Shown piece by piece: positions 6,233-57,099 of a DNA stretch of 59,450 bases. The stretch's first letter is position 1. The number at the start of each line of letters is the position of its first letter. Below the pieces are notes generated by a model. It worked only from the letters and a program-made list of their open reading frames with translations. It did not search any database and had not been told where the DNA came from. Source of the stretch: an uncultured Candidatus Saccharibacteria bacterium. Its GTDB lineage: Bacteria > Patescibacteriota > Minisyncoccia > JBAYJV01. The position numbers were made by a program, and so were the translations under genes. The stretch covers positions 1 to 59,450 of the forward strand of contig CAZNYQ010000004.1 in NCBI GenBank assembly GCA_964577395.1. Reading direction: 5' to 3'.

Positions 6233-7219
6233 ATGAAAGAATTTTTTAAAACTTCAAGTTTAGTCGTGATTTTCTTAACTCTCTTAGGGTTATTAATTTT
6301 TTTGCCTCAAAGCCGCGCTTTTGGCACTCAACATTTCCTTCCCTCTTCTTTGATTAATCTGGGACATGTTTTTCGCTTTACATTTGGAAGAAATACTGCT
6401 CTCCAGTCAGACCAAGATGGCTGGACTAATATTTTAGTTATGGGAATACCAGGAGAAGGCAATCCTGCTCCTGAATTAACAGATAGTATTATCTTAGCTT
6501 CTTTTAAGAATGACAAAATTGTTTTTTTATCTATTCCGCGCGATCTCTATGTTAAACCAACTAAAGATAGTTATTACAGAAAAATTAACTCTCTCTTATC
6601 AGCTAATTTTTCTCTCCAGCAGATTAAAGAAGTTATTTATGATATAACAGGACGGCGAGTTCATTATTGTATTACCGTTAATTTAGATTTAATTAAAGCA
6701 TTAACTAGAAAATTAGGTGGAATTAATATTTTAGTTAAAGAAGATATTGTAGACCCTACTTTTCCCGGACCTAATTACAGCTATGATCCTTTTTATTTAA
6801 AAAAGGGTTGGCGGCACTTAGATGCTGAAACAGCTGTAAAATATGTTAGGACACGTTATGATAGTGAAGGTGATTACGGAAGAATGAAAAGACAACAACA
6901 ATTCTTAGCAGCTATTAAGCAAAAAATTTCTAATCTAAACAGTTTTCAAAACTTTGATTTTATTCTTTCTCTCTACCAAGATTTTCAAGAACATATTAAA
7001 ACTGATATGACCATCAATGAGATTAAAAATCTTTGGCAGAAAAGTAAAGATACAGATCTTGCTAATGCTCAAGCAATTCGCTTAACAGCTTCTCAGCCCT
7101 CTCTTTTAAAGGAAAGTTTTGTAAGCACATTTCAGGGTAGAATGTTTGTTTTAGTACCCAGAGCTGGTCTTGGTAATTACACTCAAATTTCTAATTTTAT
7201 TAAACAATATTATGAATGA
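6233..7219 (+). CDS. LCP (LytR-CpsA-Psr) family cell-envelope phosphotransferase
   Basis: TDSIIL, SIPRDLY, KINS, YVRTR, DYGRMKRQQ motifs after an N-terminal TM. Confidence 0.92.
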   Translation: MKEFFKTSSLVVIFLTLLGLLIFLPQSRAFGTQHFLPSSLINLGHVFRFTFGRNTALQSDQDGWTNILVMGIPGEGNPAPELTDSIILASFKNDKIVFLSIPRDLYVKPTKDSYYRKINSLLSANFSLQQIKEVIYDITGRRVHYCITVNLDLIKALTRKLGGINILVKEDIVDPTFPGPNYSYDPFYLKKGWRHLDAETAVKYVRTRYDSEGDYGRMKRQQQFLAAIKQKISNLNSFQNFDFILSLYQDFQEHIKTDMTINEIKNLWQKSKDTDLANAQAIRLTASQPSLLKESFVSTFQGRMFVLVPRAGLGNYTQISNFIKQYYE

Positions 7220-7763
7220 TTTAAAAACAATTTTAATTTTTGGCTTAGGTAATCCAGGAGAAAAACATCACAATAGCCGTCATAATATAGGAAGAGAAAT
7301 AATTAATTTTTTGGTCAAAGAATTTAATACTTCTTTTGAACACAAAAAAAAGCTTAAAAGTTTCTTAGCCGAGGTAAACCAAAATTCTCACAAAATTCTT
7401 TTAGCAAAGACCGAAATGTTTATGAATGAAAGCGGCTATGCTGTCCGGCTTATTAAGGATTATTACAATATTTCTAATCAAAACATTTGGATTATTCAAG
7501 ATGATGTAGATATTGCTTTTGGAAATATCAAGACTTCTTTTGAAAGAAATGCAGCTGGCCATCACGGCATAGAATCAATTATTAAGCATTTAGGTAATAA
7601 TGAATTCCATCGTATCAGGATAGGAATTTGGAACCGACCTTTCTCAGAAAAGAAAAAAGAAATTACTCAAAGTTACGTTATGCAAAAATTTATCCCGGAA
7701 GAATTAGACAAAATATTAGATATAAAAAAAGAAGTAGCTCAAATAATTAAAGCTACTTTTTAA
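7212..7763 (+). CDS. pth: Peptidyl-tRNA hydrolase
   Basis: GLGNPG, RHNIG, FMNESG, DDVD, RIRIGI; start taken at ATG 7212. Confidence 0.94.
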   Translation: MNDLKTILIFGLGNPGEKHHNSRHNIGREIINFLVKEFNTSFEHKKKLKSFLAEVNQNSHKILLAKTEMFMNESGYAVRLIKDYYNISNQNIWIIQDDVDIAFGNIKTSFERNAAGHHGIESIIKHLGNNEFHRIRIGIWNRPFSEKKKEITQSYVMQKFIPEELDKILDIKKEVAQIIKATF

Positions 7764-7909
7764 AAATTCCTTACCTTGTCCTACCTACGAGCGTTAGGAA
7801 TATATGCAGTTGCATCTATCCCTAAACCTTACCGCTGATTACAGAGGTAGGAGGGATCACTCTGCAAATAGCACTCATAGGCAAGACAAGAAGAGGAATT
7901 TTTACTACT
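7762..7909 (-). ncRNA. Candidate 6S-RNA-like rod-shaped RNA
   Basis: Perfect promoter upstream; AAAAAUUCCU/AGGAAUUUUU plus a 19-bp helix CUUGUCUUGCCUAUGAGUG/CGCUCGUAGGUAGGACAAG, an internal bubble and an apical stem. Confidence 0.6.
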
Positions 7910-7915
7910 TTGTAT

Positions 7916-7944
7916 ATTATAATCTTTTAAGTTAAGTTTGTCAA
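7916..7944 (-). promoter_or_regulatory. Consensus sigma70 promoter
   Basis: TTGACA (7944-7939), 17-nt spacer, TATAAT (7921-7916). Confidence 0.8.
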
Positions 7945-7951
7945 TACTTAA

Positions 7952-9955
7952 ATGAAGACTATTTCACCGGTTTTAATATTAGCTAAGAAAGCAGAGATTT
8001 TTAATAAATCTCTTAATTTATCTTGGGATAAAACCAAGCTTGTTTTTAATAAACAAGAGATTATTCAATTAAGAAATTGGTTTGAGAAAAATATTTCTAA
8101 ACTAAAAAAAGCTTATCAAGTTAATATTTTTTGGAAAAACAATATCTTAATTTTAGAGAAAGATTTACATCTTCCTCCCCTAGAACTTTTAAAAAGATTA
8201 GAAGATTTTCATTATATTAAAAGTCGGCATATTAATTTGCCCGGTGAATATGCTCATAGGGGAGAAATTGTAGATATTTTTCCAATTAATCTATCTCAAC
8301 CTATCAGAATTGAATTTTTAGGGAATACTATTGAGAGAATATATTACTTAGAAAAAGAGGATCTTGATATTGAAACTTTTGATAAAAAATTAAAATTACC
8401 TAAGACAGCCTTAGATCATCTTACATCAGGAGACTATATTGTTCATCTTGATCACGGTATTGGTCGTTTTGCAGGCTTTTTAGTGCGCCAAAAAAAGAGA
8501 TATTATGAAATTCATTACAAAGGAGATGATGTTCTTTTGGTACCTGAAAATTTAAAAGAAAAACTATCTCCATATTTAGGATTTACCAAACCTTCTCTAA
8601 ATCGCTTAGGAAGTGGTAATTGGATAAAGACAAAGAAAAAAGTTAAAAAATATGCCTTAAAATTTGCCAAAGAACTTTTAGAAATTTATGCAAAAAGAGA
8701 AATTTCTCATCGTCTGCCCTACAATGAATTTCCTGATTTTGAAAGCAGGTTAGACGCCGCTTTTGAATATGAGTTAACTAAAGATCAAAAAAATGTTTGG
8801 AAAGAAATTAATAAAGATTTTGTTTCTTCTAAGCCAATGGATCGTCTCATATGCGGAGATGTTGGTTTTGGGAAAACAGAGATAGCCATGAGAACTGCTT
8901 TTAGAACAGCTTTAAATAATTATCAAACTGCTGTTATTTGCCCAACAACTATTTTGGCAGATCAGCATTTCTTGACTTTTTCAAGCAGATTAGAAAACTT
9001 TCCTGTTAAAACAGCGATTTTAACTCGTCTCGTTCCTAAGCATCGCCAAGGAAAAATTATCAAAGATTTAAAAAACGGCAAGATTGATATCTTAATTGGC
9101 ACGCATAGAATTTTATCCCAAGATGTCATATTTAAAAATTTAGGTCTTTTAATTATTGATGAAGAGCAAAGATTTGGAGTTAAGCAAAAAGAAAGACTCA
9201 AAAAAATGGAAGATAATATTAATATCTTAAGTCTTTCAGCTACTCCGATTCCTCGCACTCTTCACATGGCCCTCTCGCAATTAAAAGATATTAGTTTAAT
9301 TCAGACACCTCCTGTATATAAACTACCTATTAAAACTAAAATTGCCATTTTTAATGAAGCTCTTATCAAAAAAGCTATTCAGAAAGAAATTTCACGTCAA
9401 GGACAAGTATATTATTTACATAATCGCATAGGAACACTGATAGCTGTTAAACAAAAACTTCAAGAATTAATTCCTGAAGCCAGCTTCGCTGTTTTACATG
9501 GTAGAATGAGCGAAGCTAAGTTAATTAAAACAATTCATCAGTTTAGAGATAAAAAATATGATGTTTTAATTGCTACCTCAATTATTGAAAACGGACTTGA
9601 TTTAAAAAATGTTAATACTTTAATTATTGAAGATGCAACTAAATTAGGTTTATCACAAGCTCATCAAATACGAGGTAGGGTAGGTAGAGGCAATCTTCAG
9701 TCTTTCGCGTTTTTTCTTTATCCTCATCATAATTTAAACCATCAGACAAAAGAACGCTTAGTGGCTTTAGAAAAATTTTCATATTTAGGAGCAGGCTATC
9801 AAATAGCTAGTAAAGACTTAGAAATCAGAGGAGCTGGTAATCTTTTAGGAAGAGAACAATCAGGATCAATTAATAAGGTAGGCCTTAATCTATATTACCA
9901 AATATTAAATCAAGCCATTGAGTATCTCAAAAAGAATAAGAATTTGGATATTTAA
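7952..9955 (+). CDS. mfd: Transcription-repair coupling factor, shortened form
   Basis: GEYAHRGEIVDIFP, VHLDHGIGRF (CarD-like RID), GDVGFGKT, DEEQRFGV, SATPIPRTL, DLEIRGAGNLLG. Confidence 0.94.
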   Translation: MKTISPVLILAKKAEIFNKSLNLSWDKTKLVFNKQEIIQLRNWFEKNISKLKKAYQVNIFWKNNILILEKDLHLPPLELLKRLEDFHYIKSRHINLPGEYAHRGEIVDIFPINLSQPIRIEFLGNTIERIYYLEKEDLDIETFDKKLKLPKTALDHLTSGDYIVHLDHGIGRFAGFLVRQKKRYYEIHYKGDDVLLVPENLKEKLSPYLGFTKPSLNRLGSGNWIKTKKKVKKYALKFAKELLEIYAKREISHRLPYNEFPDFESRLDAAFEYELTKDQKNVWKEINKDFVSSKPMDRLICGDVGFGKTEIAMRTAFRTALNNYQTAVICPTTILADQHFLTFSSRLENFPVKTAILTRLVPKHRQGKIIKDLKNGKIDILIGTHRILSQDVIFKNLGLLIIDEEQRFGVKQKERLKKMEDNINILSLSATPIPRTLHMALSQLKDISLIQTPPVYKLPIKTKIAIFNEALIKKAIQKEISRQGQVYYLHNRIGTLIAVKQKLQELIPEASFAVLHGRMSEAKLIKTIHQFRDKKYDVLIATSIIENGLDLKNVNTLIIEDATKLGLSQAHQIRGRVGRGNLQSFAFFLYPHHNLNHQTKERLVALEKFSYLGAGYQIASKDLEIRGAGNLLGREQSGSINKVGLNLYYQILNQAIEYLKKNKNLDI

Positions 9956-39616: not shown

Positions 39617-39687
39617 TTGCCGAGCTAGGATTCGAACCCAGATAACAGCCTCCAGAGGGCTGCGTCCTACCGTTAGACGACTCGGCA
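39617..39687 (-). tRNA. tRNA-Gln (CTG), CCA not encoded
   Basis: TGCCGAG/CTCGGCA acceptor, CAGCC-CTCTGGA-GGCTG anticodon arm, GTTCGAATC T loop. Confidence 0.95.
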
Positions 39688-43431: not shown

Positions 43432-43458
43432 AAATTTAAATTAAATTTAAAATGCGGT

Positions 43459-43537
43459 CCAAAGACCGCCAAAAGAAGAAAGAAACATCTTTTTCCTGCG
43501 TTGGATATTTAAGCTTTAAGCCCCAAACGGTCTTTGG
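43459..43537 (-). promoter_or_regulatory. L10 leader-like autoregulatory RNA
   Basis: CCAAAGACCG/CGGTCTTTGG closing helix with an AGACCG-UUUGG...UUAAA...CCAAC-GCAG core directly upstream of rplJ. Confidence 0.75.
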
Positions 43538-43751
43538 AAATATATATAATTTTAGTTATTTACTTTTTTAATTCTTTAATGTTCTTAGCTAAACTACCAT
43601 ATTACTTATCAATAATATCCACTTTTTTATCAAAATATTCTGTTAAAATATTTAAATATTCTTTTATATCTTTTTTAGTAATTTCTATAGTAAAAATAGA
43701 TATTTTTAAGCTAAGTATACTTATTATAAACAGAAATAGGTACTTGTCAAA

Positions 43752-56913: not shown

Positions 56914-57040
56914 ACCTCCTTTAGAATTACTTATATAATATATTATCTTCTATATTATGTCAAGCAAGTTCAAGCTAACACAAAAAGAGATATAACAAAA
57001 GCCTCATGAATAAAGGCTTAGAAAAAAGGGTGCTAACGGG
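56914..57040 (-). repeat. Terminator-promoter-RBS module, copy B (abuts tRNA-His 3' end)
   Basis: TTGACA (56963-58), 17 nt, TATTAT (56940-35); hairpin AAGCCT/AGGCTT. Confidence 0.85.
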
Positions 57041-57099
57041 ACTCGAACCCGTATCGCTAGGACCACAACCTAGTGCTCTGCCCTTGAGCTATAGCCACC
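57028..57099 (-). tRNA. tRNA-His (GTG) with G-1, CCA not encoded, acceptor 3' strand one C short
   Basis: GGTGGCTA TA GCTC..GAGC, CTAGG-TTGTGGT-CCTAG anticodon arm, ACGGG-TTCGAGT-CCCGT T arm, 3' TAGCACCC. Confidence 0.9.

What the first reader, a model, noticed from the sequence alone, without database searches (positions are those of the whole stretch)
7762..7944. Unannotated 6S-like RNA antisense between pth and mfd, driven by a perfect promoter
Seen: TTGACA-17-TATAAT on the minus strand with no ORF behind it. The next ~145 nt fold end to end: a 10-bp terminal helix, a 3x3 loop, an uninterrupted 19-bp helix, an asymmetric bubble (15 and 25 nt, partly closable by UGCAG/CUGCA), then UCCCU/AGGGA, ACCU/AGGU and an apical loop. 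Established: 6S RNA is a long duplex with a central bubble that mimics an open promoter and sequesters sigma70 RNA polymerase; typical examples are somewhat longer. Inference: a compact CPR 6S RNA, or a new rod-shaped RNA family.
Basis: partly seen in the sequence, partly recalled or inferred. Interest (0 to 1): 0.62.

Follow-up and report, generated by a model that had tools for sequence, protein, structure and literature searches.

The report
Conserved anti-Shine-Dalgarno-loop small RNA
The gap between pth and mfd holds a real, separately transcribed, roughly 150-nt Y-shaped RNA gene that is conserved across ultra-small (CPR/Patescibacteria-like) bacteria and absent from Rfam; it is not a 6S RNA, and its one unchanging exposed stretch, CCCUCCU, copies the ribosome's anti-Shine-Dalgarno core.

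Summary
Observation confirmed. A perfect TTGACA-17-TATAAT sits on the minus strand (7944-7916). No conserved ORF follows it. The next ~148 nt fold far better than shuffles (z = -7.8).

Interpretation only partly right. It is a new RNA family, but not a compact 6S RNA.
- Covariance models built here find one copy in 73 of 401 genomes of the class and 38 more in other classes of the phylum.
- In 30 of 30 examined loci the gene is convergent with pth. In 29 of 30 it has a near-consensus sigma70 promoter.
- Covariation (42 of 48 pairs with double changes, 95% of cells paired) supports a three-way junction. It has a 28-bp closing stem, a short arm with a 13-nt loop, and a second hairpin.
- No Rfam family matches. 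A relative (G013) carries both this RNA and a bona fide 6S RNA at another locus.
- SRP RNA is excluded: the genome and its class lack Ffh and FtsY.

The loop reads CCUCCU in 43 of 43 copies and resembles the 16S tail. The genome is Shine-Dalgarno-poor. About a third of loci have an SD-led small membrane-protein gene directly downstream.

Best reading (inferred): the loop pairs with SD sequences to control translation.

The parts
7939..7944 (-). -35 hexamer TTGACA
   Evidence: An exact TTGACA is kept in 27 of 30 homologous loci.
7916..7921 (-). -10 hexamer TATAAT, 17-nt spacer. Transcription start inferred at about 7909.
   Evidence: 29 of 30 loci have a promoter matching at least 10 of 12 positions within 120 nt upstream, against 3.4% of control windows. 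The start site is inferred, not measured.
7873..7900 (-). P1 closing stem, 5' strand. The inner part UCUUGCCUAUGAGU is conserved in sequence.
   Evidence: RNAalifold and pair counts: 24 of 28 pairs show changes on both sides and 95.7% of cells are paired.
7765..7792 (-). P1 closing stem, 3' strand (GCUCGUAGGUAGGAC...). It ends 2 nt from the pth stop codon.
   Evidence: G-U pairs occur only in the minus-strand reading.
7834..7872 (-). P2 arm. It has a 3-bp helix (7872-7870 with 7836-7834), an internal loop (7869-7865 and 7841-7837), a 5-bp stem (7864-7860 with 7846-7842) and a 13-nt loop (7859-7847).
   Evidence: Helices 2 and 3: 7 of 8 pairs show double changes and 93-97% of cells are paired. 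In relatives the internal loop is mostly GAAA opposite AGUAG.
7849..7855 (-). Invariant CCCUCCU in the P2 loop (here GAUCCCUCCUA), the anti-Shine-Dalgarno-like element.
   Evidence: CCUCCU is present in 43 of 43 aligned copies, CCCUCCU in 42 of 43 and AUCCCUCCU in 30 of 43. The 16S tails of relatives read GGAUCACCUCCUUUC.
7824..7833 (-). Single-stranded junction J2/3 (GGUAAGGUUU), A-rich in relatives.
   Evidence: Alignments.
7796..7823 (-). P3 hairpin: 12 positions (7823-7812 with 7807-7796, one G-A mismatch) and loop AACU (7811-7808).
   Evidence: Helix 4: 11 of 12 pairs show double changes. P3 is shortened or missing in some distant members.
7724..7758 (-). Probable intrinsic terminator of the RNA. 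The stem is AAGUAGCU/AGCUACUU with an 11-nt loop, followed by C and U7. It lies inside the last codons of pth on the other strand.
   Evidence: Read from the sequence. Comparable hairpin-plus-T-run sites follow the RNA and overlap the pth 3' end in many homologous loci. The scanner did not call it, probably because the 11-nt loop exceeds its 8-nt limit (my reading of the tool's stated limits).
7170..7763 (+). pth (peptidyl-tRNA hydrolase), convergent with the RNA gene.
   Evidence: Pfam PF01195, E = 1.8e-45. pth is convergent with the RNA in 30 of 30 loci.
7952..9955 (+). Short mfd-like gene (667 aa), divergent from the RNA promoter. It is a neighbour, not part of the RNA unit.
   Evidence: Pfam finds UvrB_inter, CarD_TRCF_RID, DEAD and Helicase_C. 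It is the neighbour in only some families.

Best explanation
This is an independently transcribed, non-coding, Y-shaped RNA gene on the minus strand. It runs from a start at about 7909 to 7765, and probably on to a terminator at about 7724. It belongs to an uncatalogued family that is spread through this phylum of ultra-small bacteria and is always encoded tail-to-tail with pth.

Shown here:
- a consensus sigma70 promoter;
- a covarying fold made of a 28-bp closing stem P1, a short arm P2 and a second hairpin P3;
- a P2 loop that always displays CCCUCCU;
- one copy per genome in most genomes.

Inferred: the exposed CCCUCCU loop, which copies the anti-Shine-Dalgarno core of the 16S rRNA 3' tail, base-pairs with AGGAGG(G) ribosome-binding sites and so blocks or tunes translation. 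The likely targets are the small minority of Shine-Dalgarno-led mRNAs in an otherwise SD-poor genome. In about a third of loci the candidate target is a small hydrophobic-protein gene encoded directly downstream. Otherwise the RNA would act in trans. The long P1 stem would give stability and perhaps serve as an RNase III handle.

I put about 0.9 on 'a real new RNA family, not 6S and not SRP RNA'. I put about 0.4 on the SD-pairing mechanism.
For: Promoter and fold.

Family and distribution:
- R1 matches 55 of 401 and R2 matches 73 of 401 class genomes. The matches are full length and nearly always single.
- 38 further genomes in other classes match.

Structure:
- 95.1% of cells are paired and 42 of 48 pairs show double changes. 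0 of 500 shuffles reach this, and slid controls give 37-48% pairing.

Strand:
- The minus strand scores 142 bits and the plus strand 34 bits.

Promoters:
- 29 of 30 loci score at least 10 of 12, against 3.4% of controls. Many have an extended -10 TG.

Synteny:
- pth is convergent in 30 of 30 loci.

Loop:
- CCUCCU is in 43 of 43 copies and CCCUCCU in 42 of 43.
- 16S tails of relatives read GGAUCACCUCCUUUC.

SD usage:
- In this genome only about 6% of first-ATG starts carry a strong SD, and there is no G peak upstream of starts.

Candidate targets:
- 10 of 30 class loci and 3 of 10 loci from other classes have an SD-led small hydrophobic ORF downstream on the same strand. It starts 8-40 nt after the RNA in the class loci. 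An eleventh class locus has an SD-led ORF that is not obviously hydrophobic.
- In this genome the best predicted loop partner among 7655 start regions is the ribosome-binding site of a 74-aa two-helix membrane ORF at C7:30012-30236 (12 bp, -19.8 kcal/mol).

Other:
- Tandem duplicate copies occur in one family, as is common for regulatory sRNAs.
Against: - No transcript ends or abundance could be measured. Only assembled contigs of relatives were found in metatranscriptome runs, and several of those contigs also contain promoter or flanking DNA.
- No conserved mRNA target was shown. The single predicted trans target has no detectable homologues, and a 10-nt match is expected about once per genome by chance.
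- The downstream small ORFs are homologous only within one family, and the window itself has none.
- Phylum-wide conservation, a 28-bp stem and conserved sequence in the inner part of P1 are unusual for base-pairing sRNAs. They fit a protein-bound housekeeping RNA at least as well.
- A 6-7-nt anti-SD seed cannot by itself explain target specificity.
Confidence: 0.45

Rival explanations
1. Mimic of the 16S rRNA 3' tail that acts through a protein or the ribosome rather than through mRNAs. The loop AUC-C-CCUCCU would imitate GAUCACCUCCU and titrate or recruit a factor that normally reads the 16S tail. Candidates from general knowledge are the Era KH domain, 3'-end maturation nucleases and S1/S21-type proteins. 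The result would be a housekeeping ribonucleoprotein.
For: - 30 of 43 loops read AUCCCUCCU, differing from the relatives' 16S tail AUCACCUCCU at one position.
- Conservation is phylum-wide, mostly single-copy, with rRNA/tRNA-grade promoters.
- Sequence, not only pairing, is conserved in the inner part of P1. A GAAA/AGUAG internal loop looks like a protein-binding motif.
- A KhpA-like KH-domain gene lies beside rpsP in this genome, judged from its sequence and position only.
Against: No partner protein was identified or tested. The AUC flank is absent in about 30% of members, while CCUCCU, the part that pairs with SD sequences, is universal. The family is missing or undetected in most genomes of the class, which is odd for an essential housekeeping RNA.
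Confidence: 0.2
2. Cis-acting leader or toxin-control module. The RNA would be the structured 5' part of a transcript that continues into a small hydrophobic-protein gene, and its anti-SD loop would mask that gene's SD, as in the 5' untranslated regions of type I toxin mRNAs. Stand-alone copies such as the one in this window would be remnants, or would act on a relocated copy of the small gene.
For: - 10 of 30 class loci and 3 of 10 loci from other classes have an SD-led 46-88-aa hydrophobic ORF directly downstream on the same strand, in lineages that otherwise rarely use SD sequences.
- This genome's best predicted target is such an ORF elsewhere in the genome.
Against: Two thirds of loci, including this window, have a terminator and then pth directly after the RNA, yet keep every conserved feature. 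The small ORFs are not homologous across families. A U-run directly follows P1 in the cis cases, so read-through is uncertain.
Confidence: 0.15
3. Compact 6S-like RNA: a promoter mimic that binds the sigma70 holoenzyme.
For: It has a strong housekeeping-type promoter, a long duplex and about 150 nt. It is mostly single-copy. No RF00013 match exists anywhere in this genome, so the 6S role is unfilled here.
Against: - No RF00013 similarity at E up to 10.
- The covarying fold has no open 5' bubble strand and only a 5-bp apical stem.
- G013 carries both a member of this family and a bona fide 6S RNA of 52.1 bits. G185 has a 33-bit 6S candidate as well.
Confidence: 0.04
4. Divergent SRP (4.5S) RNA.
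For: It is a single-copy rod-like RNA with a strong promoter. No RF00169 match was found in this genome or in 25 other genomes of the class.
Against: - No Ffh M domain (PF02978) is found in the genome.
- tblastn with E. coli Ffh finds nothing, while RplS, TrmD, RpsP and GrpE controls are found.
- No SRP54-type GTPase turns up in 31 genomes of the class.
- There is no GNRA tetraloop or helix-8 loop pattern in the alignment.
Confidence: 0.01

Closest known systems
Base-pairing sRNAs with C/U-rich anti-SD loops: RsaE/RoxS and other UCCC-motif RNAs of Firmicutes, Listeria LhrC1-5, streptococcal csRNAs, actinobacterial 6C, the alphaproteobacterial alpha-r14/cuckoo type (named from my own knowledge)
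   Same: It has its own promoter and terminator and no ORF. A pyrimidine-rich motif complementary to the Shine-Dalgarno sequence is displayed in a hairpin loop. Tandem gene copies occur in some lineages.
   Different: There is no sequence or structure match to any of these Rfam families. This RNA has a 28-bp closing stem and a three-way junction. It is conserved across classes of a phylum rather than a genus or family, and it is fixed in position next to pth. Targets are unproven.
3' tail of 16S rRNA (anti-Shine-Dalgarno region, GAUCACCUCCUUUC in relatives)
   Same: The loop reads AUCCCUCCU in 30 of 43 copies, one substitution away from AUCACCUCCU. The CCUCCU core is universal.
   Different: The motif is presented in a closed 13-nt hairpin loop of a separate small RNA, not at a free 3' end after helix 45. 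No other rRNA similarity was seen.
6S RNA (Rfam RF00013)
   Same: Strong promoter, long duplex, similar size class, mostly single-copy.
   Different: It does not match the model. It has no central bubble and no long apical stem. It co-exists with a true 6S RNA in G013.
5' untranslated regions of type I toxin mRNAs that mask their own SD (hok, aapA1 and similar; named from my own knowledge)
   Same: In about a third of loci an SD-led small hydrophobic ORF follows the anti-SD-bearing structure.
   Different: Most loci, including this one, have no such ORF. No antitoxin RNA is evident. The structure is far more conserved than the ORFs.

Membership tests
6S RNA (RF00013) | Match to the family covariance model | tested here: not met
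   No hit at E up to 10 on 7650-8050. No hit in the whole genome at E up to 10. The G013 copy of this family (L103) gives no 6S hit, while the true G013 6S scores 52.1 bits.
6S RNA (RF00013) | Rod with a large central bubble between a closing stem and a long apical stem (open-promoter mimic) | tested here: not met
Covariation supports a three-way junction with no unpaired 5' strand at the junction and a 5-bp apical stem.
6S RNA (RF00013) | It is the organism's 6S RNA (no other 6S present) | tested here: not met
   G013 has both RNAs at separate loci. G185 has a 33-bit 6S candidate elsewhere. This genome itself has no detectable 6S RNA.
6S RNA (RF00013) | Binds the sigma70 RNA polymerase holoenzyme and templates product RNAs | not testable with these tools
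   This needs a binding assay or small-RNA sequencing. No read-level RNA data were found.
Bacterial SRP RNA (RF00169) | Match to the model; helix 8 with a GNRA tetraloop and conserved loops | tested here: not met
   No hit. The hairpin loops are AUCCCUCCU-type and U-rich, not GNRA.
Bacterial SRP RNA (RF00169) | Partner protein Ffh (M domain) encoded in the genome | tested here: not met
   PF02978 is absent. tblastn with E. coli Ffh finds nothing while the controls are positive. PF00448 is absent in 31 class genomes.
Anti-SD / C-rich-loop base-pairing sRNAs (functional class) | Own promoter and terminator, non-coding | tested here: met
Anti-SD / C-rich-loop base-pairing sRNAs (functional class) | Conserved unpaired pyrimidine motif complementary to the SD sequence | tested here: met
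   CCUCCU sits in the P2 loop of 43 of 43 copies. The loop is unpaired in the covariation-supported fold.
Anti-SD / C-rich-loop base-pairing sRNAs (functional class) | Demonstrable or conserved mRNA targets at ribosome-binding sites | tested here: inconclusive
   The top-ranked site in this genome is the RBS of a small membrane ORF, but that ORF has no homologues. SD-led small ORFs lie downstream in cis in about a third of loci. No neighbouring gene is a conserved target.
Named sRNA families RsaE/RoxS, 6C, csRNA, alpha-r14 and others in Rfam 15 | Match to any family model | tested here: not met
   cmscan against 4227 families found no match at E up to 10. Gathering-threshold hits in the window are only two tRNAs and the L10 leader.

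The most novel reading that the evidence does not exclude
The RNA is a free-standing, strongly expressed copy of the ribosome's anti-Shine-Dalgarno tail. It would be kept by a lineage whose own genes have largely abandoned SD-led initiation.

By occupying AGGAGG sites, or a factor that reads the 16S tail, it would act as a lineage-wide housekeeping gate on SD-dependent translation. That could mean silencing SD-led accessory, toxic small-membrane-protein or foreign (phage or host-derived) mRNAs.

This would be a new class of global translational regulator, not an ordinary target-specific sRNA.
Probability: 0.2. Interest if true: 0.9.

Novelty: new variant of a known kind. Interest (0 to 1): 0.7.

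Why it matters
Patescibacteria/CPR make up a large share of bacterial diversity, yet almost nothing is known about their RNA biology. I found no paper on 6S or other small RNAs in these organisms.

This family has strong covariation support and promoters at the sigma70 consensus. It occurs across classes of the phylum and has a fixed genomic address.

Its only invariant exposed sequence is the anti-Shine-Dalgarno core, in genomes that barely use Shine-Dalgarno sequences. That links it to an open question: how translation initiation is organised and policed in reduced genomes.

It is also a clean candidate for a new Rfam family and a useful marker for annotating these genomes.

Tried and rejected
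- **Rfam.** Searches at gathering and relaxed thresholds found nothing on the locus.
- **6S.** Rejected by model, structure and co-occurrence with a true 6S RNA. I also looked for a 6S RNA in this genome at the comEC-ndk position where G013 has one. That site has only a promoter, a weak fold and a small ORF.
- **SRP RNA.** Rejected. There is no model match and the class has no Ffh or FtsY.
- **Coding or type I toxin ORF on either strand of the RNA gene.** Rejected. No ORF is conserved.
- **DNA-level palindrome, or an element on the plus strand.** Rejected by the strand asymmetry of model scores and G-U pairs.
- **Neighbouring genes as conserved pairing targets of the loop.** None found in 30 loci.
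- **Homologues of the predicted trans target.** None found.
- **Expression evidence.**
  - No RNA run holds the window's own copy or the G013 copy.
  - Relatives of the G115 copy occur in more than 20 RNA-seq or metatranscriptome runs, but only as assembled contigs.
  - One 151-nt contig covers only the RNA. Others extend into promoter or flanks, so they do not define a transcript.
- **16S tail of this genome.** It could not be read because the assembly lacks the rRNA operon. The tails of relatives were used instead.

Full report
**1. What is in the window**

On the minus strand a perfect sigma70 consensus (TTGACA 7944-7939, 17-nt spacer, TATAAT 7921-7916) is the only 12-of-12 site in 7000-8600.

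- It lies between pth (7170-7763, plus strand; PF01195) and a short mfd-like gene (7952-9955, plus strand).
- The RNA read from about 7909 downwards folds at -66.4 kcal/mol, against -34.7 +/- 4.1 for dinucleotide shuffles (z = -7.8).
- The complementary strand folds less well.
- The only ORF in the gap is a 43-codon plus-strand frame, and no relative has it.

**2. It is a conserved gene**

BLAST against relatives found homologues in the three other genomes of the same family. Each has its own perfect TTGACA-17-TATAAT.

- A covariance model from these four sequences (R1) matched 55 of 401 genomes of the class. The matches are full length and almost always one per genome.
- A second model from 30 sequences (R2) matched 73 of 401 class genomes (60 of 283 genera).
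- R2 also matched 38 genomes in other classes of the phylum.
- A filter-free search next to pth in genomes that had no hit found two more, one of them lacking the second hairpin.
- One family has tandem copies.
- The minus-strand reading scores 142 bits and the plus-strand reading 34 bits.

**3. Structure**

On the 30-sequence alignment the consensus fold has 95.1% of cells paired.

- 42 of 48 pairs have changes on both sides, in 378 cells.
- None of 500 shuffles reaches this, and sliding the partners drops pairing to 37-48%.
- That alignment was fitted to the model, which leans the counts towards the structure. A free MAFFT/RNAalifold run on four sequences already gave the same fold, with 12 compensatory pairs.

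The anatomy in window coordinates is:

| Element | Coordinates | Notes |
|---|---|---|
| P1 | 7900-7873 with 7792-7765 | 28 positions, one 2x2 mismatch |
| P2 base helix | 7872-7870 with 7836-7834 | 3 bp |
| P2 internal loop | 7869-7865 and 7841-7837 | mostly GAAA opposite AGUAG in relatives |
| P2 stem | 7864-7860 with 7846-7842 | 5 bp |
| P2 loop | 7859-7847 | 13 nt, UGAUCCCUCCUAC |
| J2/3 | 7833-7824 | single-stranded |
| P3 | 7823-7812 with 7807-7796 | loop AACU |
| J3/1 | 7795-7793 | AAC |

- Across the family it is 74.9% paired and has no real covariation.
- Its partners in P3 covary with the P3 3' strand instead.
- An alternative conformer in this particular sequence cannot be excluded, but it is not a family feature.

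**4. Transcription signals and address**

- In 29 of 30 loci a promoter matching at least 10 of 12 positions lies within 120 nt upstream. 27 have an exact TTGACA and many have an extended -10 TG. Only 3.4% of control windows from the same loci reach that score.
- Many loci have a hairpin plus T-run after the RNA.
- In the window the candidate terminator is 7758-7732 followed by U7 (7730-7724), inside the last codons of pth.
- In 30 of 30 loci pth is on the opposite strand with its 3' end facing the 3' end of the RNA.
- lytR-pth is usually kept, whereas the upstream neighbour varies (mfd, dus or others).

**5. Not 6S**

- No Rfam family matches at E up to 10 on the locus.
- RF00013 finds nothing in the genome.
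- The fold lacks a central bubble and a long apical stem.
- The strongest argument is co-occurrence. G013 has a member of this family at C1:111768-111914 and a bona fide 6S RNA at C1:126974-127144. That 6S RNA is 171 nt, scores 52.1 bits (cut-off 46.4), has its own promoter and lies downstream of ndk. G185 has a 33-bit 6S candidate at another locus.

The 6S role is therefore filled by a different gene in relatives.

**6. Not SRP RNA**

This rival was worth testing, because RF00169 finds nothing in this genome or in 25 others of the class. But the protein partner is missing too.

- There is no PF02978 match.
- tblastn with E. coli Ffh gives no hit, while RplS, TrmD, RpsP and GrpE from the same E. 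coli locus are found.
- No SRP54-type GTPase is found in 31 genomes of the class.
- The hairpin loops are not GNRA.

**7. What it probably does**

The one invariant unpaired element is CCCUCCU. CCUCCU occurs in 43 of 43 copies, CCCUCCU in 42 of 43 and AUCCCUCCU in 30 of 43. The 16S rRNA tails of four relatives read GGAUCACCUCCUUUC. The loop is therefore a one-substitution copy of the anti-Shine-Dalgarno region.

The genome itself hardly uses SD sequences.

- Strong SD 5-mers precede about 6% of first-ATG starts of ORFs of at least 150 aa, against 2.6% of internal ATGs.
- There is no G-rich peak upstream of starts.
- Caveat: gene starts were crude first-ATG calls.

Against that background, SD-led small ORFs stand out.

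- 10 of 30 class loci and 3 of 10 loci from other classes have a small hydrophobic ORF (46-88 aa in the class loci) directly downstream on the same strand. These ORFs have AGGAGG-type SD sequences. In the class loci they start 8-40 nt after the RNA. An eleventh class locus has an SD-led ORF that is not obviously hydrophobic.
- The window has no such ORF.
- The best predicted loop partner among 7655 start regions of this genome is the ribosome-binding site of a 74-aa two-helix membrane ORF on another contig (C7:30012-30236). The duplex is 12 bp at -19.8 kcal/mol, 2.4 kcal/mol better than the runner-up.

This is suggestive, not proof.

- The ORF has no homologues that I could find.
- The small ORFs are homologous only within one family.
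- A 10-nt match is expected about once per genome by chance.

I therefore commit to SD pairing as the most likely mechanism at about 0.4. A protein- or ribosome-directed mimic of the 16S tail gets about 0.2. A cis leader or toxin-control role gets about 0.15.

**8. Expression**

- No RNA run holds the window's own sequence.
- Relatives of the G115 copy appear in more than 20 RNA-seq or metatranscriptome runs (wastewater, digester, sediment), but only as assembled contigs.
- One run has a 151-nt contig that covers only the RNA. Others have contigs reaching into the promoter or several kilobases of flank.

This is compatible with expression but does not define a transcript.

**9. Earlier notes of this scan**

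After I had reached the reading above, a word search showed that other agents had described the same family in at least eight other genomes. Those copies lie between pth and dprA, topA or rplY, and the agents reached the same conclusions: absent from Rfam, not 6S, CCCUCCU loop, SD-poor hosts. These are unchecked AI notes and not independent evidence. I re-derived each point here. One note about a small ORF downstream prompted the check.

**10. Verdict**

This is a real gene of a new structured RNA family. The 6S label is wrong. The function is inferred to be translational control through an anti-SD loop. It is novel relative to Rfam 15 and to the searchable literature.

Noticed in passing
whole genome G000 and 30 relatives of the class: No Ffh, FtsY or SRP RNA is detectable. 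RF00169 is absent in 26 of 26 genomes and PF02978 is absent in this genome. tblastn with E. coli Ffh is negative while four control proteins are found. PF00448 gives only weak P-loop-like hits in 31 genomes. An entire class apparently without the signal recognition particle would be remarkable and deserves its own check.
   Followed up: partly
whole genome G000: The genome is Shine-Dalgarno-poor. There is no G-rich peak upstream of start codons, which are A-rich at -11 and at -6 to -3. Only about 6% of first-ATG starts carry a strong SD 5-mer. Relatives nevertheless keep a canonical CCUCC tail on 16S rRNA.
   Followed up: partly
G000 contig C7:30012-30236 (minus strand; outside the window): A 74-aa two-helix membrane ORF whose ribosome-binding site UUUAGGAGGGAUUAUAUG is complementary to the RNA's loop over 12-13 nt. 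It is the top-ranked predicted partner in the genome. No homologues were found.
   Followed up: partly
L033, L036, L038, L041, L050-L053, L058, L060, L111, L116, L120 (downstream of the RNA): Small hydrophobic ORFs with strong AGGAGG-type SD sequences lie downstream of the RNA on the same strand. In the class loci they are 46-88 aa and start 8-40 nt after the RNA. The one in L120 has a lipoprotein-type signal peptide. Only the three from one family are homologous to each other.
   Followed up: partly
window 7952-9955 (+): The mfd-like protein has only 667 aa. Pfam finds UvrB_inter, CarD_TRCF_RID and the helicase domains, but nothing for the N-terminal and C-terminal domains of full-length Mfd. 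Its start codon has no SD and lies 8 nt from the RNA's -35 element on the other strand.
   Followed up: no
window 7724-7763 and homologous loci: The RNA's probable terminator hairpin and T-run lie inside the last codons of the convergent pth gene. Relatives show the same arrangement, with a recurring ...GCTTTTTTAATTATTTC... on the RNA strand. One hairpin may therefore terminate both genes and tie them together.
   Followed up: partly
G013 C1:126974-127144 (L098 1501-1671); G000 C11:23700-23900: G013 has a canonical 6S RNA with its own promoter just downstream of comEC-ndk. At the syntenic place this genome has a promoter-like site followed by a weakly folding stretch and a small membrane-like ORF. 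No 6S RNA was found anywhere in this genome.
   Followed up: partly
G126 C88:11000-11287; G343 C24:5560-5847; G293 C3:35755-36044: Two directly abutting tandem copies of the RNA occur in one family of the class. The second copy in G293 has ACCUCCU in the loop, which is even closer to the 16S tail.
   Followed up: no
P2 arm, window 7865-7869 and 7837-7841, and relatives: A conserved internal loop, mostly GAAA on the 5' side and AGUAG on the 3' side, resembles a loop-E/bulged-G motif. It may be a protein-binding or tertiary-contact site. In the window's own copy it is less typical (AUUUG / UAAUC).
   Followed up: no
window 43439-43555 (-), 39617-39687 (-), 57028-57098 (-): The only Rfam matches above threshold in the window are a ribosomal protein L10 leader and two tRNAs.
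   Followed up: no
G000 assembly: The assembly is rated 100% complete, yet the conserved 16S 3' motif is not found. The rRNA operon therefore seems to be missing, and the organism's own anti-SD tail could not be read.
   Followed up: partly
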